This document shows, one piece after another, positions 7,598 through 40,965 of a stretch of 64,000 bases of DNA (the stretch's first letter is position 1; the number at the start of each line of letters is the position of its first letter). The stretch lies in assembly GCF_965641715.1 (NCBI RefSeq), contig NZ_OZ282453.1; one strand, 5' to 3'. The translations under genes and the position numbers were made by a program. The DNA comes from Escherichia coli (lineage in GTDB: Bacteria > Pseudomonadota > Gammaproteobacteria > Enterobacterales > Enterobacteriaceae). A model generated the notes under the pieces. It made no database searches. It saw only the letters and a program-made list of their open reading frames with translations, and was not told the origin of the DNA.

Positions 7598-7631
7598 GAC
7601 TTCTCCTGTCGGGTTGGTTCGTTACGTCAAT

Positions 7632-7775: not shown

Positions 7776-7964
7776 GGTGGAACAGGTGAAACATGTGTTA
7801 CAGCTTTGTTTTATAAATCATTTATATACACTGCACCGGTGGAACATCGCGGGTAACAAGGTGGAACAGCGGATTGGCTGGCGTTACATCTGTTCCACCT
7901 CACTATTTCAGAAGGTGGAACAGGTTCAGCCCCTGTAAAATACGGTTGTTCCACCTGTTTCACC
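7776..7964. repeat. Iteron cluster: 6 perfect GGTGGAACA/TGTTCCACC 9-mers plus 2 variants in both orientations (crr/ori-like)
   Basis: copies at 7776, 7838, 7860, 7891(inv), 7914, 7947(inv); variants at 7785 and 7956; directly downstream of primase gene. Confidence 0.55.
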
Positions 7965-7998
7965 TGTTACCCTTAATAAATAAGACTCACGCAAAGCC

Positions 7999-10671
7999 TT
8001 AACCCGGCACCTCGCTGTTGAAGACATAGAGCCTGCGGGGATTCATCTCTGGCGGGCGAATGGTTGTCTGGAGTTTGCCATCAGTGGAGGGCAGCAGGTA
8101 TCCACGATCTGCGCACAGACGCGCCACCTTGCGCGGGTCAAATCCCCTGCAGATTTCTTTCCAGCCGGACGGCATGACATAAAACGTAGTGACAGCTTCC
8201 GTGCCCTGCGCGGTACTGCCTTTCTCCACCCTGCGCCAGCCCACCATATTGGCGGGGCGGTTGCGCTCGTCATACCAGTCTGCAAAGCGGCTGTACTGAT
8301 TCGCGGTAAAGAAACTGCGAACCTGCTCCAGTGCGGCGATATCTTCCTGATTGGCGGTGTGCCCGCGCTCTTTCAGCCATGCGTTCAGGCAGACGCGGGT
8401 TGCCCGCAATGCTTCACCCTCAGGCCAGCCGGTGATACCCTGACGGGTTGCCAGTTCACCTGCCATCGCCACCAGTGCAAAGCGGTTCACAGCCCGGCCC
8501 ACCTGATTGCCTGCATCTTTCGGAGTCAGGGCGGCAGCATATTCCTTCATCAGCGATTTTGCCTGTGCCGTTAGTCCGTTAAGATCAGCGGTCAGTGCTT
8601 TCAGCCACTCCCGGAACGGCGAACCGTAGTAGCAGGACGTGGCCCATTCAAGATGCTCTGCCAGAGCCTTGCCGCTGTCGAAGCCGTGCAGCTCCTCAAA
8701 AACGCCAAACTTCCCGGAATCGCTGGGGATCTGGATCATCCTGACTTCCATCCCGGCAAAAGTACGCTCACCGGCCTTTGCCGCATGTTCGGTCAGAGAT
8801 AACTCGCCAGTTGAAAAGAACAACAGGCGCCACTGCTTACGGGTACGCAGTTCACCGTCCGTACCGGCACGACCCTTGCCCTGACCGTTTGCCAGCATGT
8901 AGGCGATATTGCCTGCCTCGCGTCCGTCAACTTCCCGGATCTCATCAAGCATCATGGCGGCATCGTTGCGGCGGCTGGCACATCCCTCCAGCGCGTTGCC
9001 GGTGGCCCGCCATGTCTGCCAGTAGTCAGGCCCGCCGCAGACGGAGGTTGCCGCTTTCATGGTGGTGGTCTTACCGTCTGTCGATTCCCCTTTGAGGTGG
9101 TAGCCGCCGCCGTCCATACCAACCAGCCGTAACAGTGGTGCAGCAAAGGCCAGGCTGACAGCAAATGCCACGCGGGAGTTGCCGGTACAGTAGCGGGATA
9201 CGTTCTCCCGCCATTCCTCTGTTGTGCCCGACACGCGGAAATCACGCCCCTGCACGGAAGTGGTCTGGAGAATGACACCCTCTGCACCTTCACCGCTGAC
9301 CTCATCCTGCAGGACGTAAACCTGACCATGCCAGCCAGTACGGCTGACGCAGGTCACGCGACGTTCCGGTTTACACAGTGAGATATATTCCATCAGGCGT
9401 GCGCGTGCCTCACCGGTGGTGCTGATATAAGACAGCCCGTTAACAAGCAGTACCCGGCGCAGTTCCTCACCACTGCCGCTCAGCATTTCCATCGGCATCG
9501 CCCAGCGGCGACGCTCACCCCACGTATCTTCCCATTCCAGCAGTCGTCCGAAGTTACCGCCATCGGCATCGCAGGTGATTGCCGTCACGCGCAGCGGGCT
9601 GCATATTTTGACGTTCTGGATCTCCGTCTCACCGTTGCGCTGTACCTGCTTTTCATACCAGAGATATTCCTGGGTAAGACGGAACCCGTGCGGCAGTTGC
9701 GTGCGGCCTTCCCCGCACAGTACCAGACCGTTGCGAAAGGCTTCACGGGCACGGGTAATACCGTGCTCCCGATGAAAGTCATTCCAGTCAGCCTTAATCT
9801 CTCCTGGTGGCAGCGTCATCCAGCCGCCAACAGCTTTTGCCGCCCGTTCAGCAAAGGCTCTGCCGGGATTCTCCCCCCCGTCCTGAAAATCGTTATCACC
9901 GGCGATGATAATTTTTACCTCAGGCCAGCGTGCCCGCAGCGACTGCGCCACATTGGGCAGGTTGCCCGCAGATATGGCAGCCACTACGCATCCGGCAGTG
10001 AGCTGGCTTACCGTCAGCGCCGTAGCGTAACCTTCGGTAATCACCACCTGTACCGGTGGTTCAGACGGTAACGGGCTGAGCGACACAAACGCGCCTTTCA
10101 TCGTGCTGCCGGGCAGTATGCTTTTTTCACCCGTCGGGGCGATAAGCTGTGCACCGGTCACGGCTCCGGTGTTGGTCGTGAGTGGTAACAGCAGGGAACC
10201 AGCAGGAAAATCCTTACCGCTGATATGCTGCACGCTTCCGGTCAGAGAGGCCGGGTATCCGGCGAACCCTTTTCCTGCCAGATAGGCACTTTCTCCCGTG
10301 TGGCTCTCTTTCATCAGCGTCGCCACGGTAAGGCTCATGTCGCGTTTAGGGGCTTTTTGTCTGGCAGGCTTAACAGGCAGTTCCTGCACATCCGGCACAT
10401 TAAGCACCTGCGCCACCTGCTGCGCAGCCTTTCTGACGTTGTAGCCGGTTACGAGCTTAACCAGATCCAGACCGTCACCATTGCCACACTGGCTGCAGAT
10501 CCACGTCCCGCGCCCGTCAAGGTCATCGAGGCGAAAACGATCCTTGCCCCCACATTTCGGGCAGGGACCGTGCCTGCCGTTTTCAGGTACATCAATACGC
10601 AGCATATGCAGAATAACGGGCCATTTCCCCCGCGCGGCGGCTGAAATCTGCGTAACCGTCTGTATTGTCAT
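7999..10671 (-). CDS. P4 alpha-like primase/helicase (zinc finger + toprim + D5-type NTPase)
   Basis: N-terminal CPKCGG...CSQCG, Walker A GESTDGKTT, 890 aa. Confidence 0.8.
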   Translation of the reverse strand: MTIQTVTQISAAARGKWPVILHMLRIDVPENGRHGPCPKCGGKDRFRLDDLDGRGTWICSQCGNGDGLDLVKLVTGYNVRKAAQQVAQVLNVPDVQELPVKPARQKAPKRDMSLTVATLMKESHTGESAYLAGKGFAGYPASLTGSVQHISGKDFPAGSLLLPLTTNTGAVTGAQLIAPTGEKSILPGSTMKGAFVSLSPLPSEPPVQVVITEGYATALTVSQLTAGCVVAAISAGNLPNVAQSLRARWPEVKIIIAGDNDFQDGGENPGRAFAERAAKAVGGWMTLPPGEIKADWNDFHREHGITRAREAFRNGLVLCGEGRTQLPHGFRLTQEYLWYEKQVQRNGETEIQNVKICSPLRVTAITCDADGGNFGRLLEWEDTWGERRRWAMPMEMLSGSGEELRRVLLVNGLSYISTTGEARARLMEYISLCKPERRVTCVSRTGWHGQVYVLQDEVSGEGAEGVILQTTSVQGRDFRVSGTTEEWRENVSRYCTGNSRVAFAVSLAFAAPLLRLVGMDGGGYHLKGESTDGKTTTMKAATSVCGGPDYWQTWRATGNALEGCASRRNDAAMMLDEIREVDGREAGNIAYMLANGQGKGRAGTDGELRTRKQWRLLFFSTGELSLTEHAAKAGERTFAGMEVRMIQIPSDSGKFGVFEELHGFDSGKALAEHLEWATSCYYGSPFREWLKALTADLNGLTAQAKSLMKEYAAALTPKDAGNQVGRAVNRFALVAMAGELATRQGITGWPEGEALRATRVCLNAWLKERGHTANQEDIAALEQVRSFFTANQYSRFADWYDERNRPANMVGWRRVEKGSTAQGTEAVTTFYVMPSGWKEICRGFDPRKVARLCADRGYLLPSTDGKLQTTIRPPEMNPRRLYVFNSEVPG

Positions 10672-11051
10672 ACTTCCCCCTGATACAACGTCACACCAGT
10701 ACTGCAGAAGTCATCAAAGGTCGCCGGAAGCGTGCGGTACATCTCCGCCATTACTTCACAGCCGCGCGCGGTCAGTACCGGCGGCGCGGTCAGCAGTGAC
10801 GGCTCCAGCATGTCAGTCAGCAGTGCCAGCGCGGCAGCGGCGCCCTGTGCTTCGCCGTACTCGTTAATCAGTGCGCACTCGATATGCAGCGCAATGGCCA
10901 TTTCAATACGCTCCACCGTCAGGCTGTGCGGACCATACTGATCACTGCCAGTTTCGTTCAGCATTTTCTGCCGCCATGCTGAAGCAATAGCCCGCCGGTA
11001 AAGCGCGGTTGTCATTTCTGCCGGGAAAATGGAAACCTGCGGCTGGTTCAT
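10668..11051 (-). CDS. hypothetical satellite protein
   Basis: ORF translationally coupled (4-nt overlap) to primase gene. Confidence 0.4.
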   Translation of the reverse strand: MNQPQVSIFPAEMTTALYRRAIASAWRQKMLNETGSDQYGPHSLTVERIEMAIALHIECALINEYGEAQGAAAALALLTDMLEPSLLTAPPVLTARGCEVMAEMYRTLPATFDDFCSTGVTLYQGEV

Positions 11052-11332
11052 CTGGCACCTCCTTCAATCAGTGCACAGCTGTGCGCAATATCCGTCAAAT
11101 CTGCCCGCAGGTACTCCATCAGCGCGGCGACACCATGCGCACAGCCAGCGTCCAGTGCTCCGGCCTGAGACGGGTATTCAGAAAAGAGAAGCTGGAGCAT
11201 GTCGCAGGCATTTCTTGCGCGGGTCAGCTTTCCGAAACTGTCCTCTGACAACCCATAGGCAAAAGCACCGGTATTGTGTTTTTCAGGCAAAGTGTGGCCC
11301 TGAGCACCGTTGTGCCCGTTTGAAATATTCAT
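11048..11332 (-). CDS. hypothetical satellite protein
   Basis: ORF coupled by 4-nt overlap to downstream gene. Confidence 0.35.
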   Translation of the reverse strand: MNISNGHNGAQGHTLPEKHNTGAFAYGLSEDSFGKLTRARNACDMLQLLFSEYPSQAGALDAGCAHGVAALMEYLRADLTDIAHSCALIEGGAR

Positions 11333-11363
11333 CGTGGATTACTCCGTTTTCAGCGGTATTTTG

Positions 11364-11724
11364 TCAGAGAAACTTTGAATAGTGACCGTCGTCAGGCTCA
11401 GCAGAACGCCGTATGCTACGCTCCCGCCAGCGGATAAATAGCACAGACGGATGCAGTGTCAGCGGGCCGGAACCACTACCGCCTGCAGGAGCTGGTGCAG
11501 GCTTAAAGAGCGGTACATCAAACAGGCGCGTATACCGCTGTTCAAACCATGCCAGAGGGCAGGAAGAAAGCTGGTTGTCGCTGTCATGACGTATCAGCAC
11601 TTCACAGCTGAATTCAGGATTAACCAGCGCCACAGAGGGCGAGGCTTCAATTAATCGGATAATCGTGACCGTCCAGCCACGTTCATGCTGCCAGCGTTCG
11701 CCGGGGTGCGGATAATTACGCATG
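11364..11724 (-). CDS. hypothetical satellite protein (start MRNYPHPG at 11724)
   Basis: start ATG overlaps stop of upstream small ORF (ATGCGTAA). Confidence 0.35.
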
Positions 11725-11892
11725 TTCACCTCCGCAGGGAATGCGCCCGGCAAAGCTCAGTACATAATCCGGGGCAAGTCTTCGCCGCGCTGACCGCTCG
11801 TTATCTGCGGTGATCCTTAACATCACAGGACGGGCATTGCGTTGACTGCGGTTGATCGCCGCAAATAACCAGGTACACTTCTGTTTAGCCAT
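11716..11892 (-). CDS. small protein, possibly host cell division inhibitor Icd-like (58 aa)
   Basis: hand-translated MAKQKCTWLFAAINRSQRNARPVMLRITADNERSARRRLAPDYVLSFAGRIPCGGEHA; below the 60-aa cutoff of the ORF track. Confidence 0.35.
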   Translation of the reverse strand: MAKQKCTWLFAAINRSQRNARPVMLRITADNERSARRRLAPDYVLSFAGRIPCGGEHA

Positions 11893-11983
11893 CTTCGTTA
11901 CCTCTTATAACGGTTGGTTAAATGCCCGATTTGTGTTCCCGCACAATCGGGCATTGCTTTTACAAGCGAACTATACTTACAAT

Positions 11984-12027
11984 GGTAATTACCATGTAGT
12001 CATCATATTCCAGGGTAATTACCATGT
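11984..12027. promoter_or_regulatory. Tandem operator-like repeats GGTAATTACCATGT (each containing palindrome GGTAATTACC), 30 bp apart
   Basis: copies at 11984-11997 and 12014-12027; second overlaps the ATG of the small + strand ORF. Confidence 0.45.
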
Positions 12028-12197
12028 CAACACCACAAGAGAAACGTTCCCCACCATTCCAAATGCGTCTTACCGACGATTTTAGGTTGCAACTCGAAAA
12101 AGAAATGCGCAAAGATGGAGATAGCGCGTTGGCAACTTGGATTAAAAGAATTTTACGTAAAGAACTACAATCACGCGGGATTGACCCTAAAGGTTAA
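12024..12197 (+). CDS. small ribbon-helix-helix-like DNA-binding protein (57 aa)
   Basis: hand-translated MSTPQEKRSPPFQMRLTDDFRLQLEKEMRKDGDSALATWIKRILRKELQSRGIDPKG; strand-helix-helix pattern; only + strand gene in the satellite. Confidence 0.4.
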   Translation: MSTPQEKRSPPFQMRLTDDFRLQLEKEMRKDGDSALATWIKRILRKELQSRGIDPKG

Positions 12198-12229
12198 TCA
12201 GTTAAATATTACTAACTATCAATTAAGGC

Positions 12230-12520
12230 TTAGGGAGTAGGTGATAATCTATTCCCTTTATTAATTGCTCTTGCCTTATTTCTCATCCCCTCAAACTGTT
12301 GACCTGAGTTTTCTTCAAACCCATCTCGCCACTTATAATAATCAGCAGCGCGCCATCGGGACATCCGACCTATTTTTATAGGTTTTGGAAAGCGATTCAG
12401 AGAAATCAATCGATAAATCCATTTGTCACTTAATAAACAATCGGAAGTAATAAACTTCATATCGATCAGAGAATCCATTGAAGGTCGTTGCAAAGTAGTA
12501 TTATCATGTTTAGATAACAT
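12230..12520 (-). CDS. alpA: AlpA-family phage transcriptional regulator
   Basis: KFITSDCLLSDKWIYRLISLNRFPKPIKIGRMSRWRAADYYKWRDGF matches AlpA-type HTH proteins. Confidence 0.7.
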   Translation of the reverse strand: MLSKHDNTTLQRPSMDSLIDMKFITSDCLLSDKWIYRLISLNRFPKPIKIGRMSRWRAADYYKWRDGFEENSGQQFEGMRNKARAINKGNRLSPTP

Positions 12521-12645
12521 TCATCATTCTCCGTTTATCTAAGTCTATTGGCTTCAACACGGAAAATTAAAACATAGGTTATAAATGAGAAAAATGTGAC
12601 TAATGAAAAAAATCCAAAATCATTAGTCACAATAATTGTTAACAT

Positions 12646-13470
12646 TTAGTTAAACTTAATGTTTTTCATGCAACTACGTAGCAAGCTAACAACAGTATCA
12701 TAGCTCAAAGGTGGTTCTCCGGTCTTAGGCCAGAACTCACTGGCATGTTGAAAAAGATAATCAGCTATCGCTGCTGGACTCTCTCTTCTTAGCCTCATAT
12801 CACGATGATAGAGCGAAATAATAGCCATGAGTATTTCAGTTCGAGGAACAGCATGTTTTTGTTTTTGCGCCTCAGATTGTGATTTATATTTATTGGCGTT
12901 TTTTATCCGTTTTTGTTCGCATAAGACTATATCAATGAATTTTTGAATCTGTACCTTTGTAATCCACAAAACCTCAAAAAGATAATAATTTTCTTTTTCA
13001 TCATAATTTACATAAAGAATTACCTTACAATTTATATTAGGCGTACCCGCCAGTAGAAAATGAATAGGCCAGGAATCCGGTTGCCCCTCATGCTTAACTA
13101 ACAGATCTTTATATTCATAATCAACAGCCCATAAACCGGATATAAAGCATCGAATAAAACCATTTTTATCAATTAAATTATTTTCATCAGGGATTCTTAT
13201 AGAGCTTAAGTCTGACAACATAATATTGCCATTTCTATCTCGTGGTAAATATTTCAGATTAGATAAGAACTCATCCAGTTGACCATCAATCTTCAAACCA
13301 CATGAAACATCATACTCATCATCATGGAATTCCATGCATAGCTCTACATCTCGTTCTCTGGCAAACCAGAGTATATCCTTTTCACTACAACCAATTTTTT
13401 CTGAAGCTTCATCCAACTGGTAGTAATCTCTGAGCAGAGAATCAGTATTATTAATTTTTAAAATATTCAT
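12646..13470 (-). CDS. hypothetical AT-rich protein of unknown function, translationally coupled to integrase
   Basis: 274 aa; ATGA start/stop overlap with int; low GC relative to flanks; no motif recognised. Confidence 0.4.
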   Translation of the reverse strand: MNILKINNTDSLLRDYYQLDEASEKIGCSEKDILWFARERDVELCMEFHDDEYDVSCGLKIDGQLDEFLSNLKYLPRDRNGNIMLSDLSSIRIPDENNLIDKNGFIRCFISGLWAVDYEYKDLLVKHEGQPDSWPIHFLLAGTPNINCKVILYVNYDEKENYYLFEVLWITKVQIQKFIDIVLCEQKRIKNANKYKSQSEAQKQKHAVPRTEILMAIISLYHRDMRLRRESPAAIADYLFQHASEFWPKTGEPPLSYDTVVSLLRSCMKNIKFN

Positions 13471-14726
13471 TTATGAGTACCAATTAGCTCAGATAAATAA
13501 TTAGCATACCATTGCATCATTTCTCTTCTCCCTTCGAGATATTGGGCATGGTTATAAATTCCACGAATAGAGTTTTTGTCCGAATGAGCAAGCTGGGTTT
13601 CAATCCAAGCGCTGTTAAATCCTTTCTCATGTAGAATTGTACTCATCGTATGCCTGAAACCATGTCCCGTAACACGCCCTGCATATCCAATACGTTTAAA
13701 CACCTGATTGATGCTTGCTTCACTCATAAATTTGCTAGGATCGTTGCGTCCAGGGAACATCAGCGGGTAGTTCCCAGTTAGTTCTTTCAAACTTTTGAGA
13801 TGGGATAATGCTTGTTTTGGTAACGGGACAATATGGCTCCTACGCATTTTCATACGTTCTTTTGGGATCTCCCACACCGCATTATCAAAATCCACCTCTC
13901 GCCACTCACCTGCTCGTAGTTCTCCAGTTCGTAGACCTGTCAGGATAAGTAAATGCGCCCCCAACAATACAATTGGACTTCCTGAATAAGAATTAAGGGC
14001 ATTAAAGAACTCCGGTAGTTCGTTGGCTTTGAGGAATGGATAGTGGACTGCTTCATGTCCTTGCATCGCACTGGCAAGATCCGGTGCCGGATTGTAGATT
14101 GCCCTACCCGTTACGATGGCATAGCGAAAAACTTCACCGCATCGCTGACGGACTTTCTTCGCTTTCTCCATAGCGCCTCGAGCTTCTATCAACCTCAGAA
14201 CTTCAAGCAGTTCAAGGGGCTGAATATCAGCTATAGGTCTGTGCCCAATATGCGGAAAAATGTCTTTCTCAAATGCCTCAATGATGTCGGAAGCATAGCC
14301 CTCAGACCATTTGGATGATTTCATTTTGTGCCACTCTAACGCCACTTCTCTGAATGGGTTAAGTGTCTCAATCGCTGCGTTTAAAGCCTGCTTTTTGGCT
14401 TTTTTGACTTCGCCGGGATCTTCACCTGCTGCGAGTAGTTTCTTTGCGTCTTCTCGTTTTTGTCTGGCATCAGCAAGTGTGACTGTTGGATAAACACCAA
14501 AGGACAATCGTTTCTCTTTACCAGCAAAACGGTATTTCATACGCCAGTAACGCGAGCCATTAGGTTCGACCTGAAGGTATAGGCCACCTCCATCAAACAG
14601 CTTATAGCTCTTCTCTTTTCCTTTCGCAGCTTCAACCTTGCGGGCATTCAGCATCATTGGGGGCACATTTCCTAGACCGAACAGAACATGCCCCTGATTG
14701 TGCCCCCAACCGCGTGTTGATTTCAA
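13467..14726 (-). CDS. int: P4-type tyrosine integrase (probable start at MLNARKV, 14654)
   Basis: KEKSYKLFDGGGLYLQVEPNGSRYWRMKYRFAGKEK N-terminus and C-terminal HGFRHT...Y catalytic region; adjacent to tRNA-Thr. Confidence 0.9.
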   Translation of the reverse strand: MKSTRGWGHNQGHVLFGLGNVPPMMLNARKVEAAKGKEKSYKLFDGGGLYLQVEPNGSRYWRMKYRFAGKEKRLSFGVYPTVTLADARQKREDAKKLLAAGEDPGEVKKAKKQALNAAIETLNPFREVALEWHKMKSSKWSEGYASDIIEAFEKDIFPHIGHRPIADIQPLELLEVLRLIEARGAMEKAKKVRQRCGEVFRYAIVTGRAIYNPAPDLASAMQGHEAVHYPFLKANELPEFFNALNSYSGSPIVLLGAHLLILTGLRTGELRAGEWREVDFDNAVWEIPKERMKMRRSHIVPLPKQALSHLKSLKELTGNYPLMFPGRNDPSKFMSEASINQVFKRIGYAGRVTGHGFRHTMSTILHEKGFNSAWIETQLAHSDKNSIRGIYNHAQYLEGRREMMQWYANYLSELIGTHK

Positions 14727-19220: not shown

Positions 19221-20465
19221 TTAACACAAACGTTTTTCGATCCATTCTGTGATTTCCTGAAGACCTTTGTCAAAATTCCGATACACCGGGTTAAATGGGA
19301 TCTCTAATAATTTACCGTCAGCAGATGATGAGGTGATTAAGCGTGAGTCCTCTTCCGGGCTGAACGGATCGTTCTTCCAGTAGCCTGATAACATTGGCGT
19401 TGGGCAGCGACGTCCCAGCAATCCTTGCACTTTTAATGAATAGCGATTCAGCTCCACGCGCAACGCTTCGTCGGAAGCATCATGCATCCCCAAACGACTG
19501 GCCAGAACGTCAAGATACATTTCCGGCACCTGTTGCTGGCACTTAAAATCACTCAACAGGGTATGAACTACCGGACCAAGACAGGCAACCGCTTTCAGAC
19601 GCGGCGATTCAAGGTATGCCAGACGCACGGCAACGTTAGCGCCGAAACGGAAACCAAAGGCCGCGACGCGAGTGTGATCCACCCACGGTACGTTAGGCAG
19701 TGCCTTTAAGACGTGCTGATGCAACAGGCTGGAGTCCTGGGTGAGCTTCCATTTTGAAGAAAAGCCCACCGACGGCATATCAATAGTCAGCATCGCAATG
19801 CCGCGCGGCGCAAAATAACGTTCATACAGGCTGTAATAGTCCGTCTGCATCGCATCCAGACCACCACACATTAATACCGTCGGGAACGGGCCATCGCCTT
19901 TCGGCATATGCAAAAAGCCGGTGATGGGCGCACCGCCAGGTACGGTAAACTCCATCTGCCGCATCGTGCCCGGTAGACGCTGAGCGGCCTCTTCATAGGC
20001 GCGGTTTGACAAAGCCTGCGCTTGCTCGGCCAGGTCATCTCCTTTCAGATGAGGATAGGCGGCAATGTTGTACAACGTAGCCGCATGCAGCCAGTGACGA
20101 CCACTGAGTTGCGGATCTTCTTCCGCACAGGCTTTTTGTTGCCACACCATCGCCTGGGTGGCCCACTCATAAATCCAGTTGCCGCCACGGTAGCCAATCA
20201 CCGTATCGTATAAATCATCGTCGGTACGTTCGGCATCGCTCATCACAATACGTGCCTGGACGTCGAGGATTTCGCGTGGGTCAATGCCGCGCCAGATCCA
20301 CATCAGACGGTTAATCATGCGATACCAGTGAGGGATGGTTTTACCATCAAGGGCCGACTGCACAGGCGGTTGTGCGCCGTGATTAAAGCGGCGGACTAGC
20401 GTCGAGGTTTCAGGATGTTTAAAGCGGGGTTTGAACAGGGTTTCGCTCAGGTTTGCCTGTGTCAT
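19221..20465 (-). CDS. frsA: esterase FrsA
   Basis: 414 aa alpha/beta hydrolase matching FrsA. Confidence 0.9.
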
Positions 20466-21275: not shown

Positions 21276-22733
21276 GTGTCTGAACTGTCTCAATTATCTC
21301 CACAGCCGCTGTGGGATATTTTTGCCAAAATCTGTTCTATTCCTCACCCGTCCTATCATGAAGAGCAACTCGCTGAATACATTGTTGGTTGGGCAAAAGA
21401 GAAAGGTTTCCATGTCGAACGCGATCAGGTAGGTAATATCCTGATTCGTAAACCTGCTACAGCAGGTATGGAAAATCGTAAACCGGTCGTCTTGCAGGCC
21501 CACCTCGATATGGTGCCGCAGAAAAATAACGACACCGTGCATGACTTCACGAAAGATCCTATCCAGCCTTATATTGATGGCGAATGGGTTAAAGCGCGCG
21601 GCACCACGCTGGGTGCGGATAACGGCATTGGTATGGCCTCTGCACTGGCGGTTCTGGCTGACGAAAACGTGGTTCACGGTCCGCTGGAAGTGCTGCTGAC
21701 TATGACCGAAGAAGCCGGTATGGACGGTGCTTTTGGCTTACAGAGCAACTGGTTGCAGGCTGATATTCTGATTAACACCGACTCCGAAGAAGAAGGTGAA
21801 ATCTACATGGGTTGCGCGGGGGGTATCGACTTCACCTCCAACCTGCATTTAGATCGTGAAGCGGTTCCAGCTAGTTTTGAAACCTTCAAGTTAACCTTAA
21901 AAGGTCTGAAAGGCGGTCACTCCGGCGGTGAAATCCACGTTGGCCTCGGTAATGCCAACAAACTGCTGGTGCGCTTCCTGGCGGGTCATGCAGAAGAACT
22001 GGACCTGCGTCTTATCGATTTCAACGGCGGCACACTGCGTAACGCCATCCCGCGTGAAGCCTTTGCGACCATTGCTGTCGCAGCTGATAAAGTCGACGCC
22101 CTGAAATCTCTGGTGAATACCTATCAGGAGATCCTGAAAAACGAGCTGGCAGAGAAAGAGAAAAATCTGGCCTTGTTGCTGGACTCTGTAGCGAACGATA
22201 AAGCTGCCCTGATTGCGAAATCTCGCGATACCTTTATTCGTCTGCTGAACGCCACCCCGAACGGTGTGATCCGCAATTCCGACGTGGCAAAAGGTGTGGT
22301 CGAAACCTCCCTGAACGTCGGTGTGGTGACCATGACTGACAATAACGTAGAAATTCACTGCCTGATCCGTTCTCTGATCGACAGCGGTAAAGACTACGTG
22401 GTGAGCATGCTGGATTCGCTGGGTAAACTGGCTGGCGCGAAAACCGAAGCGAAAGGCGCATATCCTGGCTGGCAGCCGGACGCTAATTCTCCGGTGATGC
22501 ATCTGGTACGTGAAACCTATCAGCGTCTGTTCAACAAAACGCCGAACATCCAGATTATCCACGCGGGCCTGGAATGTGGTCTGTTCAAAAAACCGTATCC
22601 GGAAATGGACATGGTTTCTATCGGGCCAACAATCACCGGTCCACACTCTCCGGATGAGCAAGTTCACATCGAAAGCGTAGGTCATTACTGGACACTGCTG
22701 ACTGAACTGCTGAAAGAAATTCCGGCGAAGTAA
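21276..22733 (+). CDS. pepD: cytosol non-specific dipeptidase (Xaa-His dipeptidase)
   Basis: 485 aa M20 peptidase, GTG start. Confidence 0.95.
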   Translation: MSELSQLSPQPLWDIFAKICSIPHPSYHEEQLAEYIVGWAKEKGFHVERDQVGNILIRKPATAGMENRKPVVLQAHLDMVPQKNNDTVHDFTKDPIQPYIDGEWVKARGTTLGADNGIGMASALAVLADENVVHGPLEVLLTMTEEAGMDGAFGLQSNWLQADILINTDSEEEGEIYMGCAGGIDFTSNLHLDREAVPASFETFKLTLKGLKGGHSGGEIHVGLGNANKLLVRFLAGHAEELDLRLIDFNGGTLRNAIPREAFATIAVAADKVDALKSLVNTYQEILKNELAEKEKNLALLLDSVANDKAALIAKSRDTFIRLLNATPNGVIRNSDVAKGVVETSLNVGVVTMTDNNVEIHCLIRSLIDSGKDYVVSMLDSLGKLAGAKTEAKGAYPGWQPDANSPVMHLVRETYQRLFNKTPNIQIIHAGLECGLFKKPYPEMDMVSIGPTITGPHSPDEQVHIESVGHYWTLLTELLKEIPAK

Positions 22734-22789: not shown

Positions 22790-23158
22790 TTATCCTTCGA
22801 TAAATGCCATCCCTGTAAACGTTCGTCGCGGGTTGCCACGTTCAATCTGGTGATGGAACATTCGCCGCTGCGATTTCAGCGCCGCGCTATTTTCCTGTTG
22901 CTGTTGCTCCAGCTTCCAGGCAATCAGCAATCGCGCCAGCCGTTTGTTAGCATGCTGGCTGCGTTCTGACTGAACCTTCACGCTAATCCCGGTTGCCAGA
23001 TGCGTGGCGCGTACCGCCGAGTCGGTTTTATTGACATGTTGACCGCCCGGCCCCGACGAACGCAGCGTGTCAGGATAACGCCCGGCTTCGGTTTCCAGCA
23101 CCGTTACCGCGACGTCTTGTCGGGTAAAAACGACCAACAGAGAAGAACGCTGCGCCAA
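22790..23158 (-). pseudogene. prfH: peptide chain release factor homolog RF-H, 5'-truncated fragment
   Basis: GGQ motif [11 protein letters not shown] present but protein only 122 aa; upstream rtcB-like fragment in another frame. Confidence 0.7.
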
Positions 23159-23324
23159 TCGGGTAGCCGCGTCCGGGGTGTAAATCTGGCATCCCCACTA
23201 CGCGCTGCATGTTGGGTAAATTTGCCGTGGTGTGTAATTGTTGGATCGCTAAACTCTCGATCCACAGGTCATCAGATGCGATGGTAAATACCGCATCGGA
23301 TAAGGGACGAATATATTTGCCCAT
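23140..23324 (-). pseudogene. ykfJ: RtcB-like ligase N-terminal fragment (ykfJ-type remnant)
   Basis: [57 protein letters not shown] then frame lost; boundaries approximate. Confidence 0.5.
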
Positions 23325-23641
23325 GTACCATTCCATTTATACTCGTCATACTTCAAGTTGCATGTACTGCGACTGCGTTCGTTCACCCCAGTCACTTACT
23401 TATGTAAGCTCCTGGGGATTCACTCGCTTGTCGCCTTCCTGCAACTCGAATTATTTAGAGTATATAAATATAAAAATCAGGAAATGGCAGACGAATCCAG
23501 GGCAAGAAAAAAAGAATTAATCCTGGAAAGGTCTGCAAAGAGTCATTGATAAAGGATTTGTCATGATTTACCTCCTTGCAGTTTGTGGAATAAGAAAACG
23601 CGCACATACCAGGCGGGCGTTATTTTCATTGCAAGCTGGAT

Positions 23642-24094
23642 TTAATGTTGCGGTTTATATCGCATATAAAAATTAGTAAACCAAGCTCCACGGCATTCAA
23701 CGCGCTGCTGCTTAACTGTCTGAAAACCATAACGTTCAAAAAAGGGTTTTGCGGTTATGCTGGCGTCCACCGTAAGTTCGGATTCAGACTTAATCAAAGG
23801 TTTTAACAAAGCGCTGGCAACCCCACGGCGGGTGTATTCAGGGTCAACAAATAACATATCGATATAATGTTCAATGCGGGAAATAAAACCAACCGGTTGT
23901 GCATTAATGACTGCAACCCGCACTTGTGATTTCGCGAGTTTCTCCTTCCAGCGAGATTCGTCAATCTGCGCCCAGGCGGCAATTTGTTGTGGTGAATAAT
24001 GCTGACTGGCGGTCATCATAACCGCTCTAATGAAAATAGCGCATAGTTGCTGAAAATCGCCAGGCTGATAGTTTCTTATTTGTATGTTATTCAT
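23642..24094 (-). CDS. yafP: GNAT-family acetyltransferase
   Basis: MNNIQIRNYQPGDFQQLCAIF start matches YafP; ORF track adds spurious upstream codons. Confidence 0.85.
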   Translation of the reverse strand: MNNIQIRNYQPGDFQQLCAIFIRAVMMTASQHYSPQQIAAWAQIDESRWKEKLAKSQVRVAVINAQPVGFISRIEHYIDMLFVDPEYTRRGVASALLKPLIKSESELTVDASITAKPFFERYGFQTVKQQRVECRGAWFTNFYMRYKPQH

Positions 24095-24125
24095 AATGTA
24101 AGTTTTGTTTTGAATACCCGCATCC

Positions 24126-24419
24126 TTATTCCTTAAAGTCATTGAAATCATCATCCGTCATATCATTAAGATATTGTTCAGCGCGGCGTGTAATTTCCTC
24201 TAATCTTGCAGCACTTGGACGGAAGCGCGCCTTTATGGGCTTTTTCTCCTCTTGTTCAGCAAGCATGTCCATTAACGCTTCGAATGCGCTGGCACTTAAG
24301 AGATATCCTGCGGGGCGATTATTAGAAAGAACCGCAACCGGTTGATCAATAAAGTATTTAGCTGGGTTTTTACGTAACTCAGTAATATTGACCGATTTTT
24401 CAGCGAGAATTCGATGCAT
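24126..24419 (-). CDS. yafN: antitoxin YafN (Phd/YefM family)
   Basis: 97 aa match to YafN. Confidence 0.9.
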   Translation of the reverse strand: MHRILAEKSVNITELRKNPAKYFIDQPVAVLSNNRPAGYLLSASAFEALMDMLAEQEEKKPIKARFRPSAARLEEITRRAEQYLNDMTDDDFNDFKE

Positions 24420-24470
24420 ACAGTGATCCCCTCATAATAATGCACACTAGAATAGACATAATAGTATACA

Positions 24471-25526
24471 TCATAATCCCAGCACCAGTTGTCTTTCCAT
24501 TTGAGGGTCAAGCAACGTCACATGCAGCCCCACCAGTCGCACACCGCGCCCACCGCGGCGTTCATCCCAGGTTTTACGCGCGGTGGCGATTAGATCAGCT
24601 TTATTCAGCCGCGGCCAGACGTGCTCCTGGGTGGTTTGCTGAAAATCGTCGAACTTTAATTTCACCCCCTGGCGAGCAATCAGTAAATCAGGTTTTACCT
24701 TTGCCAGACGGCGTTCAAGTTCCGGATACAGCCGCTCGATAATCGCTTCACATTCAGACCAGTGATGAATATCTTCCGCCATCGTGCGTTCCACGCCGAC
24801 GGATTTTCGTAACCGTTCGCTGTTAACATCGCGCTCGTCAATCCCCTGACTACGCTCCCACAAAATGCGGCCAAATTTGCCAAAGCGTTTAAGCAGAATC
24901 ACCAGATCACACTTTTGTACATCACCGCAGGTCCGCAGCCCCATCGCTTCCAGTTTTGCCGCCGAGACTTTGCCGACGCCGGGGATTTTTGCCAGCGGTA
25001 AGGTTTGCAGAAATGCCGGAACTTCTGCCGGAGTAATCACAAACTGGCCGTTGGGTTTATTCATGTCGGAGGCGATTTTGGCGAGAAACTTTACTGGTGC
25101 CACGCCCGCAGACGCCGTCAGTTGCAGCTCGCTGAAAATCGTCTGGCGGATTTCCTGGGCGATGAGGGTCGCAGAACCGTGGCAATGGACGCTGTCGGTG
25201 ACATCGAGATAAGCCTCATCCAGTGACAACGGCTCAATGCGCGAGGTGTAGCGCGAGAAGATTTCACGGATATGATTTGAGGCTTCTTTGTAGGCGTCAA
25301 AGCGCCCCGGAAGCAAGGTGAGATGTGGGCATAATTTGAGCGCCATCCCTGTCGGCATAGCGCTGCGTACGCCAAATTTACGCGCGGGATAATTGGCGGT
25401 GCTGATCACCCCCCGACGTTCGCGGCTGCCGCCAATAGCAATAGGGATATCGCGCAGGGCGGGATTGTCGCGCATCTCCACTGCGGCGAAAAAGCAGTCC
25501 ATATCCACATGAATGATTTTACGCAT
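24471..25526 (-). CDS. dinB: DNA polymerase IV
   Basis: 351 aa Y-family polymerase. Confidence 0.95.
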
Positions 25527-25540
25527 TACTCACCTCTCAA

Positions 25541-25560
25541 CACTGGTAAAGTATACAGTG
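25541..25560 (-). promoter_or_regulatory. LexA (SOS) box upstream of dinB
   Basis: minus-strand cactgtatactttaccagtg = CTG-N10-CAG, 15-34 nt upstream of dinB ATG. Confidence 0.7.
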
Positions 25561-26326: not shown

Positions 26327-28066
26327 ATGCTTTCACGCTCGGATTTACTGACGCTGTTGACAATCAACTTTATCGTCGTCACCAAAGGGGCCGAGCGTAT
26401 TTCCGAGGTTTCTGCCCGCTTTACCCTGGACGCGATGCCCGGCAAACAGATGGCGATTGACGCTGACCTTAACGCCGGGTTGATCAACCAGGCGCAGGCG
26501 CAAACCCGGCGTAAAGATGTCGCCAGCGAGGCCGATTTCTACGGCGCGATGGACGGGGCGTCGAAGTTTGTGCGCGGGGATGCCATCGCCGGGATGATGA
26601 TTCTGGCGATCAACCTGATCGGTGGTGTCTGTATCGGGATCTTCAAATACAACCTGAGCGCTGACGCTGCCTTCCAGCAATATGTGCTGATGACCATCGG
26701 CGACGGGCTGGTGGCGCAGATCCCTTCCCTGCTGCTCTCCACCGCGGCGGCGATTATCGTCACCCGCGTCAGCGACAACGGCGATATCGCCCATGACGTA
26801 CGCCACCAACTGCTGGCAAGCCCGTCGGTGCTCTACACCGCTACCGGAATTATGTTTGTGCTGGCGGTAGTGCCGGGGATGCCCCACCTGCCGTTTTTGC
26901 TGTTCAGCGCCCTGCTTGGCTTTACCGGCTGGCGGATGAGCAAACGCCCGCAGGCGGCGGAGGCGGAAGAGAAAAGCCTCGAAACGCTGACCCGTACCAT
27001 CACCGAAACCAGCGAGCAACAGGTCAGTTGGGAGACTATTCCGCTGATCGAGCCTATCAGTTTAAGCCTCGGCTACAAGCTGGTGGCGCTGGTGGACAAA
27101 GCCCAGGGCAACCCGCTCACCCAGCGTATTCGCGGCGTGCGACAGGTGATATCCGACGGCAACGGCGTGCTGCTGCCGGAGATCCGCATTCGGGAAAACT
27201 TCCGCCTTAAGCCCAGTCAGTACGCTATTTTCATCAACGGCATTAAGGCCGATGAAGCAGATATTCCGGCGGATAAACTGATGGCCCTGCCCTCCAGCGA
27301 AACCTACGGCGAGATAGACGGCGTGCTGGGGAACGACCCGGCGTACGGGATGCCGGTGACCTGGATCCAGCCCGCGCAGAAGGCGAAGGCACTAAATATG
27401 GGGTATCAGGTGATCGACAGCGCCAGCGTGATTGCCACCCATGTGAATAAGATTGTACGCAGCTATATTCCTGATTTGTTTAACTATGACGACATCACAC
27501 AGTTGCATAACCGTTTGTCGTCGATGGCACCGCGCCTGGCGGAGGATTTAAGCGCGGCGCTGAATTACAGCCAGTTGCTGAAAGTGTACCGCACACTACT
27601 GACCGAAGGCGTTTCCCTGCGCGACATCGTCACCATCGCCACCGTGCTGGTCGCCAGTAGCGCGGTGACCAAAGATCACATTCTGCTGGCGGCCGATGTG
27701 CGCCTGGCGCTGCGGCGCAGCATTACTCATCCGTTCGTTCGCAAACAGGAGCTGACGGTGTATACGCTGAATAATGAGCTGGAAAATCTGCTCACCAACG
27801 TAGTGAATCAGGCGCAACAGGGCGGCAAAGTGATGCTCGACAGCGTGCCGGTCGACCCGAATATGCTCAACCAGTTCCAGAGCACGATGCCGCAGGTGAA
27901 GGAGCAGATGAAAGCGGCGGGGAAAGATCCGGTGCTGCTGGTGCCGCCGCAGTTGCGTCCTTTGCTGGCGCGCTATGCAAGGTTGTTTGCGCCGGGGCTG
28001 CATGTGCTGTCGTATAACGAAGTGCCGGACGAGCTGGAGTTGAAGATTATGGGGGCCTTGAGTTGA
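26327..28066 (+). pseudogene. lfhA: lateral flagellar export protein LfhA (FlhA-like), promoterless 5'-truncated fragment
   Basis: begins inside the FlhA motif FTLDAMPGKQMAIDADLNAGLI..FYGAMDGASKFVRGDAIAG; lacks N-terminal TM segments. Confidence 0.65.
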
Positions 28067-28096
28067 TTGAGGAGGCTATATAAGGGCCAGGACCGT

Positions 28097-28185
28097 CCCC
28101 TCGCCCCTTTGGGGAGAGGGTTAGGGTGAGGGGAAAGTGCGCGCTGAGCCCCTCACCCCGGCCCTCTCCCCAAAGGGGCGAGGGA
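28097..28185. repeat. REP-type imperfect palindrome (two ~36-bp inverted arms)
   Basis: ccctcgcccctttggggagagggttagggtgagggg ... cccctcaccccggccctctccccaaaggggcgaggg. Confidence 0.6.
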
Positions 28186-28227
28186 GAAAATCGTGTACGA
28201 CTTTAGCTTTTTCGCGGTATTGCCGTC

Positions 28228-29186: not shown

Positions 29187-29447
29187 ATGGCTGCTAACGC
29201 GTTTGTTCGCGCCCGAATCGATGAAGATCTGAAGAATCAGGCGGCGGACGTACTGGCCGGGATGGGGCTGACCATCTCTGACCTGGTTCGCATAACCCTC
29301 ACAAAGGTCGCGCGTGAAAAGGCATTGCCGTTTGATTTACGCGAGCCTAATCAATTAACCATTCAATCAATCAAAAACAGCGAAGCTGGCGTTGATGTTC
29401 ATAAGGCCAAAGACGCCGATGATTTATTTGATAAATTAGGAATTTAA
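29187..29447 (+). CDS. dinJ: antitoxin DinJ (RelB family)
   Basis: 86 aa match to DinJ. Confidence 0.9.
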   Translation: MAANAFVRARIDEDLKNQAADVLAGMGLTISDLVRITLTKVAREKALPFDLREPNQLTIQSIKNSEAGVDVHKAKDADDLFDKLGI

Positions 29448-29449: not shown

Positions 29450-29730
29450 ATGATTCAAAGGGATATTGAATACTCGGACAATTTTCAAAGGATGTAAAAC
29501 TTGCACAAAAGCGTCATAAGGATATGAATAAATTGAAATATCTTATGACGCTTCTTATCAATAATACTTTACCGCTTCCAGCTGTTTATAAAGACCACCC
29601 GCTGCAAGGTTCATGGAAAGGTTATCGCGATGCTCATGTCGAACCGGACTGGCTCCTGATTTACAAACTTACCGATAAACTTTTACGATTTGAGAGAACT
29701 GGAACTCACGCGGCGCTCTTTGGGTAAAGC
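29450..29730 (+). pseudogene. yafQ: toxin YafQ, frameshifted near the 5' end
   Basis: ATG at 29450 gives MIQRDIEYSDNFQRM then TAA; the YafQ body (MNKLKYLMTLL...) continues from 29524 in a different frame. Confidence 0.65.
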
Positions 29731-38871: not shown

Positions 38872-40965
38872 TTAACCTCGGCTCACCGTTTTCGATTCCA
38901 TCCAATAAATGACCCGGTTGGATGTGGGCTGATCGCCAACAACTTTGCCATCTGCAGAGATTAGCTTCAGCTCTTTATTAGCCTCATCACCGAAGTAAAT
39001 CATGCGGTAGCGAAAATAACCGCCCCAGGGTTCGCGTCCACCCAGCGAACTTTGCATAAACCAGGCGCGGGAGTCGTGAACCTGGTCATCATAGAGAGCC
39101 AGTAATTCAGCGCAGGGCTGAGTACGCGTTCCCGTTCCCAGTGAATCAATAAAAAATTGTGGATAGAGTCCGTCTCCCATAGCCTTAATTTGCTGATATT
39201 CTTTTGCTTCATCATCGCCATTAATCAGATACACCGGATATTTAGGAATGACATCCACAAGAATCTGAATGGCTTTCTCCATGACGCTGCCGTTAATATC
39301 GCGCGTCCATCCTTTATAATCGCTCTGAAATTCTCGGGCTGCCTCTCGCAACTGATACTGAGCATTGGTTGGGTCAAGGATAGGAATGCCCTGATTACTT
39401 TCATCAAGTGTGCCATTCCCTTTCTGCTTGTTCGCCCGCTCTTTTTCAATATTTTCCATTTGTTCTTTACGCGCTTTAGCCTCTTTATCAAGTCCATCTT
39501 TATCCAGCTGTGGCGCCTTAATATAAAAAGGTTGCACAAGAAGGCTGTTATTCGCATAGCGACCGATACGCCAGGCGGTGATCCAGCCGATCTGATCGCT
39601 AATTGCGCTTTCAAGAACCTGGGCAAGTTGATAGGAGTGATAATCTTCCCTCGTATCAATCATTTCTTCTGTACCCTGCAAGGTGGTGTTCAGCAGCGTT
39701 TGTCGCCAGATGTTGAAGCGTTTTGTTAATGAATTAGCAATCGTAAATTCCTTTACGCTAGAAGGACTCATAATTCGCAGAGGCGACACACCTTTTATTA
39801 ATGGAGTAACAAATTTAGAATAAACAGCAAGTGGTGCTCCTGAATCAAATGCAGCAAGATACATATCATGCAGTGCTATCTGAGAAAGAATTTCGCCTGA
39901 GTCACCACAGGACTTCCCCTGATCGCGAACGGGATAGCCACCACCGACATCAGAGTGCATCCCCGGATAGATAATTTCCTCTGCATTTAAAGGATAATTT
40001 CCGTCTGGACGACGGATTGAATCCAGCGGAAAGCACAGCCGCTGCTCATGCGCGGCAACGAAGTGGCGGCAGCATTTAATCAGGCCGGGAAACTGCCTCT
40101 CATCAGGGAGTTGCTGAGTACTATCGGCCCATCCCATATGACCGGCAGCGCCCGGTAAAACATGCGCCGCCCCCACAGAAGCTACGGTATCCAGCAGCCC
40201 CAAAAACTCAATACTGACAGCTAACCCGGCCAGCATCACCTGTTGCTCCTGCGGGCAAGCTAACTGAGTCAACCAGTTAACAAAAGTTCGTGCTTCCGCT
40301 GCGCCACGGGAAAATCCGTAGATAAACAGCTTTACGTTTAGCAGGCGCGGACTGGCTTGCTCTAACAGTCCCTGTAATTTTTCCAGGTAGGGGTTAATCA
40401 CATTGCGACGATTCACTTCACCAGTCATAGGCCAGGGAGCGCGCATAAGAGGAATGTGCTCTTTTGCCACATTATCATCCAGTCGCTTATGGGAAGGGTC
40501 AATGGAATAGCTCAGGGCATCCACGAGGCGTAATAATGCCCAATTAATTCGATCTTCACCACCAGTAGCGAACTCCAGCCCGCTGTTGCTGTAATCCATT
40601 TCACCTATCTTGGGAAATGGTGTGCCTACACCCGGTATATAGTAGTTAAAATATCCCTGTTCTTCTGCGTTCTGATAGGTCGTATGAAACAGTTTGGCAA
40701 TATTGATTGGGTGTCCAGGAGTGTCATTATATTCATTATTATTTGTACCATCAAAAAACAGACTAATATGCAGACTTTGATTACACGTAAAGCCAATTCT
40801 AAATCCAGCCTGTTTACTACAGTTGGTTTTGTGCTCTTCTGTTTTATTGATTTGTTTTAGGTAGTTCGCGTTTACCTGCGCTTCAGATAATATTAATCGC
40901 CCATTTTCAGGAAACGCTGGGGGGGCATAACACGGAAAAGCCAGACCACTTATTTCGCTGGACAT
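38872..40965 (-). CDS. tle1: T6SS phospholipase effector, Tle1 family
   Basis: 697 aa; lipase motif GFSRGA (GxSxG); sits after adaptor gene in vgrG island. Confidence 0.7.
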   Translation of the reverse strand: MSSEISGLAFPCYAPPAFPENGRLILSEAQVNANYLKQINKTEEHKTNCSKQAGFRIGFTCNQSLHISLFFDGTNNNEYNDTPGHPINIAKLFHTTYQNAEEQGYFNYYIPGVGTPFPKIGEMDYSNSGLEFATGGEDRINWALLRLVDALSYSIDPSHKRLDDNVAKEHIPLMRAPWPMTGEVNRRNVINPYLEKLQGLLEQASPRLLNVKLFIYGFSRGAAEARTFVNWLTQLACPQEQQVMLAGLAVSIEFLGLLDTVASVGAAHVLPGAAGHMGWADSTQQLPDERQFPGLIKCCRHFVAAHEQRLCFPLDSIRRPDGNYPLNAEEIIYPGMHSDVGGGYPVRDQGKSCGDSGEILSQIALHDMYLAAFDSGAPLAVYSKFVTPLIKGVSPLRIMSPSSVKEFTIANSLTKRFNIWRQTLLNTTLQGTEEMIDTREDYHSYQLAQVLESAISDQIGWITAWRIGRYANNSLLVQPFYIKAPQLDKDGLDKEAKARKEQMENIEKERANKQKGNGTLDESNQGIPILDPTNAQYQLREAAREFQSDYKGWTRDINGSVMEKAIQILVDVIPKYPVYLINGDDEAKEYQQIKAMGDGLYPQFFIDSLGTGTRTQPCAELLALYDDQVHDSRAWFMQSSLGGREPWGGYFRYRMIYFGDEANKELKLISADGKVVGDQPTSNRVIYWMESKTVSRG

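What the first reader, a model, noticed from the sequence alone, without database searches (positions are those of the whole stretch)
24095..24125. yafO toxin gene absent: yafN antitoxin is followed directly by yafP
Only ~31 bp separate the yafN stop from the yafP start, whereas K-12 has the yafO toxin gene between them. With the yafQ frameshift, both SOS-linked toxins near dinB are inactivated in this genome while their antitoxins remain.
Basis: partly seen in the sequence, partly recalled or inferred. Interest (0 to 1): 0.4.

Follow-up and report, generated by a model that had tools for sequence, protein, structure and literature searches.

The report
yafO toxin gene deleted, antitoxin kept
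In this E. coli lineage a clean 379-bp deletion has removed the YafO toxin gene from the SOS-controlled dinB operon and left its antitoxin gene yafN and the downstream yafP intact; this is a rare but ordinary example of a toxin-antitoxin pair decaying toxin-first.

Summary
On the minus strand, yafN ends at 24126-24128 and yafP starts at 24094, so 31 nt (24095-24125) separate them. K-12 and the closest yafO-carrying relative (A30) have 379 bp more at this point. Only the first 25 nt of yafO survive. They now form a 10-codon mini-ORF (MRVFKTKLTL*) whose TGA overlaps the yafP ATG (ATGA).

dinB, its LexA box, yafN (100% identical to K-12 YafN) and yafP are intact. No YafO homologue lies elsewhere in the window. 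The yafQ frameshift (GGG to GG at 29476-29477) is also real, and dinJ is intact.

Among 5,426 complete E. coli genomes, 2,846 carry yafN and 2,844 carry the yafO interior; the rest lack both, which is the known two-gene dinB-yafP form. Only one complete genome (GF43) has this junction. The junction also occurs in draft assemblies on several different haplotypes, so it is neither an assembly artefact nor a laboratory construct.

All copies share a junction base (C) that no yafO-carrying genome shows. This favours a single origin spread by recombination.

The finding is a third structural form of a known polymorphic operon, and the only study of this operon's structure that my text searches found does not report it. 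Biologically it is routine toxin loss. Interest is low to moderate.

The parts
25541..25560 (-). LexA (SOS) box of the dinB operon promoter
   Evidence: Exact match to CACTGTATACTTTACCAGTG. The same 20-mer lies 34 nt upstream of the dinB ATG in the K-12 locus. That this 20-mer is the dinB SOS box comes from my recollection, not from a tool result or a cited paper.
24471..25526 (-). dinB (DNA polymerase IV), intact, 351 aa
   Evidence: ORF. tblastn gives 99.4% identity to K-12 DinB over its full length.
24470..24499 (-). Promoter-like site upstream of yafN, a candidate for the yafNO proximal promoter
   Evidence: This is a consensus match only: TGGAAA-18-TATGAT. A mapped, YafN-autoregulated promoter upstream of yafN is reported for K-12 in PMC2814082. 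The correspondence between that promoter and this site was not verified base by base.
24126..24419 (-). yafN, now an orphan antitoxin gene, intact, 97 aa
   Evidence: 100% amino-acid identity to K-12 YafN. NCBIfam NF007300 scores 196.7 bits against a cut-off of 99.
24095..24125 (-).
24091..24123 (-). yafO remnant: a 10-codon mini-ORF, ATG CGG GTA TTC AAA ACA AAA CTT ACA TTA TGA (MRVFKTKLTL*). It keeps the yafO start region, and its TGA overlaps the yafP ATG (ATGA).
   Evidence: Translation. yafO nt 1-25 are 100% identical to K-12.
24098..24101 (-). Deletion junction TTAC. K-12 and A30 have TTAT at both the left and the right breakpoint, so the C at 24098 is specific to the deletion allele.
   Evidence: Alignments, and the mismatch map. 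No perfect match was found to yafO-carrying sequence engineered to carry the C on either side.
23642..24094 (-). yafP (GNAT N-acetyltransferase), intact, 150 aa
   Evidence: 97.3% identity to K-12 YafP. NF007338 scores 326.8 bits against a cut-off of 146.
29187..29447 (+). dinJ antitoxin gene, intact
   Evidence: 98.8% identity to K-12 DinJ. TIGR02384 scores 83.7 bits.
29450..29727 (+). yafQ pseudogene. A 1-nt deletion (GGG to GG at 29476-29477) gives a stop after 15 codons.
   Evidence: Alignment. tblastn splits the gene over two frames. The frameshift is shared by drafts L004 and L005, which align without gaps. It is absent from all 3,330 complete genomes that carry this locus.

Best explanation
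This is a genuine, naturally occurring deletion allele of the E. coli dinB-yafN-yafO-yafP operon.

Shown:
- A 379-bp deletion with endpoints in a short TTA(T) direct repeat removed yafO codons 9-132.
- dinB, the LexA box, yafN and yafP are untouched.
- The locus can therefore still make Pol IV, YafN and YafP, but not the ribosome-dependent mRNA interferase YafO.
- YafN is left as an orphan antitoxin.

Inferred:
- The surviving yafO start region now opens a 10-codon mini-ORF that terminates at a TGA overlapping the yafP ATG (ATGA). This is the same kind of overlap found in the common two-gene dinB-yafP form. yafP translation is therefore probably still coupled to upstream translation by termination-reinitiation.
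- The allele is the toxin-first stage of toxin-antitoxin decay.
- The allele most likely arose once and has been moved between, or eroded within, different E. coli backgrounds by homologous recombination.

In the window's own lineage the neighbouring yafQ toxin is independently dead through a frameshift, while its antitoxin gene dinJ is intact.
For: - Deletion defined against K-12 and A30, with the yafO stub and ATGA overlap.
- Intact partner genes and an exact LexA box.
- Not an artefact. The identical junction 30-mer is in the complete genome GF43 and in the independent drafts L004-L007, L011 and L012. L004 and L005 are 99.99% identical to the window over 12.4 kb.
- Not a K-12 construct. The region is only 96.8-98% identical to K-12.
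- Derived from the four-gene form. yafN and yafO co-occur almost perfectly, in 2,846 and 2,844 of 5,426 genomes, and a 25-nt yafO stub remains.
- Single origin is favoured by three results. All deletion alleles carry C at the junction. The best matches among about 2,840 yafO-carrying genomes to C-bearing left or right flanks were always one mismatch short of identity. The tracts identical to the window are nested around the junction: about 2.7 kb in L006, 729 bp in L007 and 157 bp in GF43.
- Background from the literature: yafNO has its own YafN-autoregulated promoter, SOS induction comes from the dinB promoter (PMC2814082), and yafP in the two-gene form overlaps dinB by ATGA (PMC3105422).
Against: - Only 64 kb of the genome is visible, so a second yafO-family toxin elsewhere, which would make YafN not truly orphan, cannot be excluded.
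- Translational coupling through the mini-ORF is inferred from sequence only.
- GF43 shares just 157 identical bases around the junction. Its yafN-yafP haplotype is 97.6% identical to the nearest yafO-carrying genome and about 96% identical to the window. An independent, recurrent deletion therefore remains possible.
- The test for the C variant would miss a progenitor that carries the C together with another nearby SNP.
- The statement that yafN cannot be deleted while yafO is active comes from my recollection of Singletary 2009. That paper was not available to read.
Confidence: 0.85

Rival explanations
1. Recurrent hotspot. The same 379-bp deletion arises repeatedly and independently by slippage between the TTAT microhomologies, or by a two-step route through the AACTTA repeats in yafO codons 7-9 and 12-14. 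On this view the window lineage and the GF43 lineage do not share the allele by descent.
For: The GF43 and window haplotypes differ at 222 of 5,785 aligned positions and are identical for only 157 bp around the junction. The GF43 haplotype is far from every sampled haplotype (97.6%). The common yafNO deletion is itself thought to have recurred at least three times at an ATGA repeat (PMC3105422).
Against: Every copy has the same junction base C, which is templated by neither flank in any perfect-match yafO-carrying genome. Independent events would each need the same extra change. Only 1 of 2,846 complete yafN-carrying genomes has the junction, and yafN and the yafO interior are found in 2,846 and 2,844 genomes. 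That is not what a hotspot would produce.
Confidence: 0.2
2. Retained for function. YafN is not a decaying leftover but is kept by selection. It could act as repressor of the internal promoter that also feeds yafP, or as an anti-addiction factor against incoming YafO-family toxins on plasmids or phages.
For: YafN is full-length in all five deletion haplotypes examined, and the GF43 copy differs by 4 synonymous changes and 1 non-synonymous change. YafN autoregulates its promoter (PMC2814082). yafN and yafO sequences each match 8 places on plasmid records in the complete E. coli genome set.
Against: There are too few substitutions for a selection test, and they may have been imported by recombination from yafO-carrying strains where yafN is essential. 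Roughly half of E. coli genomes manage without yafN. No experimental data exist.
Confidence: 0.25
3. Assembly error or laboratory-engineered yafO knockout.
For: The deletion is clean and leaves yafP positioned directly behind a short upstream ORF, as a designed non-polar deletion might.
Against: The same junction is present in at least seven independent public assemblies, including a complete genome from chicken meat. There is no FRT or cassette scar. The surrounding DNA is 2-3% diverged from K-12.
Confidence: 0.02
4. Ancestral yafN-only state, with yafO inserted later in other strains.
For: Some authors regard yafNO as an insertion into an original dinB-yafP bicistron (PMC7167474).
Against: The first 25 nt of yafO, including its start codon, are still present. 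yafN and yafO co-occur in 2,846 and 2,844 genomes.
Confidence: 0.02

Closest known systems
Four-gene dinB-yafN-yafO-yafP operon of E. coli K-12 (NC_000913.3, 250898-253161)
   Same: Same genes, order, LexA box, yafN protein (100% identical) and yafO start region. Same flanking genes (lafU/lfhA remnants, ykfJ/prfH pseudogenes, pepD).
   Different: 379 bp are missing, covering yafO codons 9-132 and 5 nt of the spacer. yafP now sits 31 nt after yafN.
Two-gene dinB-yafP operon (CFT073 type; Gutierrez et al. 2011, PMC3105422)
   Same: yafO is lost, yafP is retained, and the yafP ATG is overlapped by an upstream stop codon as ATGA. The exact YafP protein of the window also occurs in two-gene strains (L008-L010).
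   Different: In the two-gene form yafN is also gone and the overlapping stop belongs to dinB. Here yafN is kept and the overlapping stop belongs to a 10-codon yafO stub. Gutierrez et al. report only the four-gene and two-gene forms.
E. coli GF43 chromosome NZ_CP172127.1 (yafN ACHP5S_RS10610, yafP ACHP5S_RS10605)
   Same: Identical junction sequence (100% over 101 nt), and yafN and yafP are annotated as adjacent. It is the only such case among 5,426 complete genomes.
   Different: The haplotype is very different (96.2% identity). rtcB-prfH is intact, and dinJ-yafQ and rayT are absent.
Orphan antitoxins left by toxin loss in E. coli, for example orphan higA in NRG857c and CFT073 (PMC7232551) and the abundant orphan antitoxins reported in PMC10790755
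   Same: An antitoxin gene is retained at the native locus after its toxin partner is lost.
   Different: The gene family and locus are different. Here the deletion endpoints and the surviving toxin stub are defined at base resolution.

Membership tests
Complete YafNO type II toxin-antitoxin module | Phd/YefM-type antitoxin gene yafN present and intact | tested here: met
   NF007300 scores 196.7 bits against a cut-off of 99. 100% identity to K-12 YafN.
Complete YafNO type II toxin-antitoxin module | Cognate toxin gene yafO (PRK09885 family, 132 aa) immediately downstream of yafN | tested here: not met
   Only nt 1-25 remain. There is no YafO-like ORF anywhere in the window. K-12 YafO scores 246.6 bits on NF007377 as a positive control.
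Complete YafNO type II toxin-antitoxin module | Embedded in the LexA-controlled dinB operon | tested here: met
   dinB is intact, and the 20-mer I recall as the dinB LexA box is present exactly at the K-12 position upstream of the dinB ATG. Gene order is as in K-12.
Complete YafNO type II toxin-antitoxin module | Toxin arrests growth and antitoxin neutralises it | not testable with these tools
   This needs expression experiments. It is moot here because the toxin gene is gone.
Orphan antitoxin / degenerate toxin-antitoxin locus | Intact antitoxin at the native locus, toxin deleted or disrupted, and remnants showing derivation from a full module | tested here: met
   The yafO stub and the 379-bp deletion relative to A30 and K-12. 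Also holds for dinJ with the frameshifted yafQ.
Orphan antitoxin / degenerate toxin-antitoxin locus | No cognate toxin copy elsewhere in the genome | not testable with these tools
   Only the 64-kb window is available. Complete genomes hold 1 to 2 places matching the yafO interior, with a median of 1.
Two-gene dinB-yafP operon (Gutierrez 2011) | dinB stop codon overlaps the yafP ATG (ATGA), with yafN and yafO both absent | tested here: not met
   The dinB stop codon (24471-24473) is 376 nt from the yafP ATG (24094), and yafN lies between them.
DinJ-YafQ type II toxin-antitoxin module | Intact yafQ reading frame downstream of dinJ | tested here: not met
   A 1-nt deletion gives a stop after 15 codons. 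Residues 10-92 are still recognisable: TIGR00053 scores 110.4 bits.

The most novel reading that the evidence does not exclude
The yafN-only operon may be the missing intermediate in the repeated loss of yafNO from E. coli: toxin first, by a TTAT-mediated deletion, then antitoxin, by recombination between the TTATGA at the end of dinB and the TTATGA at the yafP start. On this reading, only deletions that restore an ATGA stop-start overlap with yafP survive, because yafP translation depends on coupling. That would make this locus a natural record of how an inserted toxin-antitoxin module is excised without harming its host operon. The evidence does not exclude it. The window's exact YafP allele occurs in both three-gene and two-gene strains, and both derived forms end in TTATGA overlapping the yafP ATG.
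Probability: 0.15. Interest if true: 0.4.

Novelty: new member of a known kind. Interest (0 to 1): 0.22.

Why it matters
- It adds a third, rare structural form (dinB-yafN-yafP) to an operon that the only study of its structure found in my text searches (Gutierrez 2011, PMC3105422) describes as either four-gene or two-gene.
- It gives a base-resolution example of toxin-first decay of a chromosomal toxin-antitoxin pair.
- Strains carrying it are natural yafO-null, yafN-positive backgrounds. In the window's lineage they are yafQ-null as well. They could be used to ask whether YafO or YafQ contribute anything to SOS physiology, and whether orphan YafN has a role of its own.
- For annotation, the deletion opens the yafP frame upstream to an ATG at 24154, so gene callers may mis-start yafP.
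- None of this changes current understanding of toxin-antitoxin biology.

Tried and rejected
- Shigella origin. I suspected this because of the double toxin loss and the low identity to complete E. coli genomes. I rejected it because no IS elements turned up in the ORF and family scans, a T6SS gene cluster is present (two vgrG, tssC, Tla1 and Tli1a), and E. coli draft assemblies match at 99.99%.
- Engineered K-12 yafO knockout. Rejected: the region is 96.8-98% identical to K-12, there is no scar, and the same junction occurs in wild isolates.
- Progenitor with the junction C. I searched for a yafO-carrying genome with C on the right flank or the left flank. The best hits always had one mismatch, so none was found.
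- Second yafO in the window. tblastn, blastn and phmmer --max on six frames found nothing.
- Singletary et al. 2009, on the essentiality of yafN when yafO is present, is not held in the library. That point rests on my memory.
- Text searches for a described orphan yafN or yafN-only operon found nothing specific.
- I did not run the metagenome or species-representative genome scans for the junction. Exact-match scans there would add little to the E. coli counts already obtained.

Full report
**Setting**

The window is an E. coli chromosome segment that is largely collinear, in inverted orientation, with K-12 between roughly 237 and 262 kb. The gene order is:
- proA, then frsA 19221-20465 (-), gpt and pepD 21276-22733 (+)
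- the ykfJ/prfH pseudogenes
- yafP, yafN and dinB (all on the minus strand)
- lafU/lfhA remnants, yafL, dinJ-yafQ, dpaA, yafJ and fadE
- an integrase-bearing island on the left and a T6SS cluster on the right

These assignments come, and partly from synteny with the K-12, GF43 and A30 records.

The lineage is not among the 5,426 complete RefSeq E. coli genomes. The best identity over 24 kb is 98.2-98.3%. Two draft E. coli assemblies, GCA_053638755.1 and GCA_018013555.1, match 12.4 kb around the finding with a single mismatch and no gaps.

**The observation**

yafN occupies 24126-24419 (-) and yafP occupies 23642-24094 (-). In K-12, yafO (399 bp) lies between them, 2 nt after yafN and 9 nt before yafP.

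Alignment with K-12 and with A30, the closest yafO-carrying relative, shows one 379-bp gap. It corresponds to L001 8327-8705. The first 25 nt of yafO are retained (window 24123-24099).

Both breakpoints carry TTAT in yafO-carrying genomes. The junction in the window reads TTAC (24101-24098), so the C matches neither flank.

The remnant reads ATG CGG GTA TTC AAA ACA AAA CTT ACA TTA TGA, which translates to MRVFKTKLTL*. Its TGA overlaps the yafP ATG as ATGA.

No other YafO-like sequence exists in the window.

**Integrity of the rest of the operon**

- dinB is full-length, 99.4% identical to K-12.
- YafN is 100% identical to K-12 and passes the NCBIfam equivalog cut-off.
- YafP is 97.3% identical to K-12 and also passes its cut-off.
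- A 20-mer that I recall as the dinB LexA box is present exactly, at the same position upstream of the dinB ATG as in K-12.
- A promoter-like hexamer pair lies just upstream of yafN. A YafN-autoregulated promoter was mapped in that region in K-12 (PMC2814082). I did not verify the correspondence base by base.

**The companion claim about yafQ**

yafQ has lost one G from a GGG run (29476-29477), which gives a stop after 15 codons. dinJ is intact.

The frameshift is shared by the two near-identical drafts. None of the 3,330 complete genomes that carry the locus has it: the best hits all show a one-base gap. So it is real and specific to this lineage.

**How unusual the arrangement is**

In 5,426 complete E. 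coli genomes, yafN is found in 2,846 and the deleted part of yafO in 2,844. The two genes are therefore almost always present or absent together. This matches the published split into four-gene and two-gene operons (Gutierrez et al. 2011, PMC3105422).

A 101-nt probe across the junction matched contiguously, at 100%, in only one complete genome. That genome is GF43 from chicken meat, where yafN and yafP are annotated as neighbours.

In the larger collection of draft assemblies:
- The window's exact YafP protein was read on 24 contigs. By the tool's grouping of contigs with mostly the same neighbouring genes, 19 of these fall in groups whose shown representative has the yafN-31 nt-yafP arrangement, and 5 fall in groups with the two-gene form.
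- The GF43 YafP variant is indexed in 255 blocks of the collection. The two places shown have the three-gene arrangement, and 22 further contigs were grouped with one of them.
- The junction 30-mer is present in L002, L004-L007, L011 and L012.

The allele is thus rare among finished genomes but established in at least two sizeable lineages.

**One origin or several**

Relative to the window:
- L006 is identical over about 2.7 kb around the junction.
- L007 is identical over 729 bp (yafP to yafN).
- GF43 is identical over only 157 bp, with about 3% divergence on both sides.

The GF43 haplotype is also 2.4% away from every yafO-carrying genome.

All deletion alleles nevertheless share the junction C. 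Probes carrying that C on either the left or the right yafO-carrying flank never found a perfect match among about 2,840 genomes.

I therefore favour a single deletion event, with later recombination moving the allele or eroding its flanks. Recurrence at the microhomology is not excluded. I give it about 0.2.

**Mechanism and consequences**

Shown: the locus can no longer encode YafO, and the other three genes and the SOS operator are intact.

Established for K-12: YafO is a translation-dependent mRNA interferase, YafN neutralises it and autoregulates the proximal promoter, and DNA damage induces the genes from the dinB promoter (PMC2814082).

Inferred:
- SOS induction in this strain raises Pol IV, YafN and YafP without any YafO-mediated mRNA cleavage.
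- YafN may persist because the deletion is young, because it still represses the internal promoter, or because it can neutralise incoming YafO-like toxins. YafN is full-length in all five haplotypes, but there are too few substitutions to test for selection.
- The mini-ORF keeps yafP translationally coupled. yafP has no recognisable Shine-Dalgarno sequence in the two-gene form (PMC3105422), and I saw none upstream of its ATG in the K-12 or window sequence. In both derived forms an upstream stop overlaps its ATG.

**Comparison with known systems**

The locus fails the test for a complete YafNO module because the toxin gene is absent. It also fails the test for the two-gene dinB-yafP operon because yafN is present and there is no dinB/yafP overlap.

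It fits the general category of orphan antitoxins left by toxin loss, which is widely reported in E. coli (PMC10790755, PMC7232551).

I found no paper describing a yafN-only dinB operon. The arrangement is visible, without comment, in public annotation of GF43.

**Verdict**

The feature is a real, naturally occurring, apparently undescribed but unsurprising allele. I class it as a new member of a known kind, with interest about 0.2.

Noticed in passing
window 29450-29727 (+), frameshift at 29476-29477: The yafQ toxin gene is inactivated by loss of one G from a GGG run, while dinJ is intact. None of the 3,330 complete E. coli genomes carrying the locus has this frameshift. Two near-identical draft assemblies share it.
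   Followed up: yes
window 23642-24154 (-): After the deletion, the yafP reading frame stays open upstream through the yafO stub to an ATG at 24154 inside yafN. This creates a spurious 170-aa ORF that could mislead gene callers about the yafP start.
   Followed up: partly
window 28062-28227: rayT (yafM, the REP-associated transposase present in K-12 and A30) is absent. Only about 160 bp of G+C-rich, REP-like palindromic sequence separates the lfhA remnant from yafL. GF43 also lacks rayT.
   Followed up: no
window 3392-14726: This appears to be an integrated island beside proA. It holds a P4-type integrase (13467-14726, -), a DprA-like protein (4632-5696, -), an 890-aa helicase-like ORF (7999-10671, -) and several ORFs with no NCBIfam match.
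   Followed up: no
window about 36500-64000: A T6SS cluster with two vgrG genes (44715-47114 and 51037-52995, both -), a Tla1 chaperone (41818-42588), Tli1a immunity protein (40950-41504) and TssC (54913-56448, +). An ORF at 36540-37052 hits an ICE PFL_4695-family domain.
   Followed up: no
window 22790-23336; L002 8837-10587: The window has the same ykfJ/prfH pseudogene pair (an rtcB-prfH deletion) as K-12. GF43, which shares the yafO deletion junction, has intact rtcB and prfH. The two structural polymorphisms, 1 kb apart, are therefore unlinked.
   Followed up: partly
L008-L010 (draft E. coli contigs), positions 4949-6453: The window's exact 150-aa YafP protein also occurs in strains with the two-gene dinB-yafP fusion. 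One of these (L010) has Flag-2-type flagellar genes (FliD, FliS and a MotA/MotB pair) directly upstream of dinB, where the window has only lafU/lfhA remnants.
   Followed up: no
window 12000-36000: The source lineage is not represented among 5,426 complete RefSeq E. coli genomes. The best identity over 24 kb is 98.2-98.3%, which is unusually distant for so densely sampled a species.
   Followed up: partly
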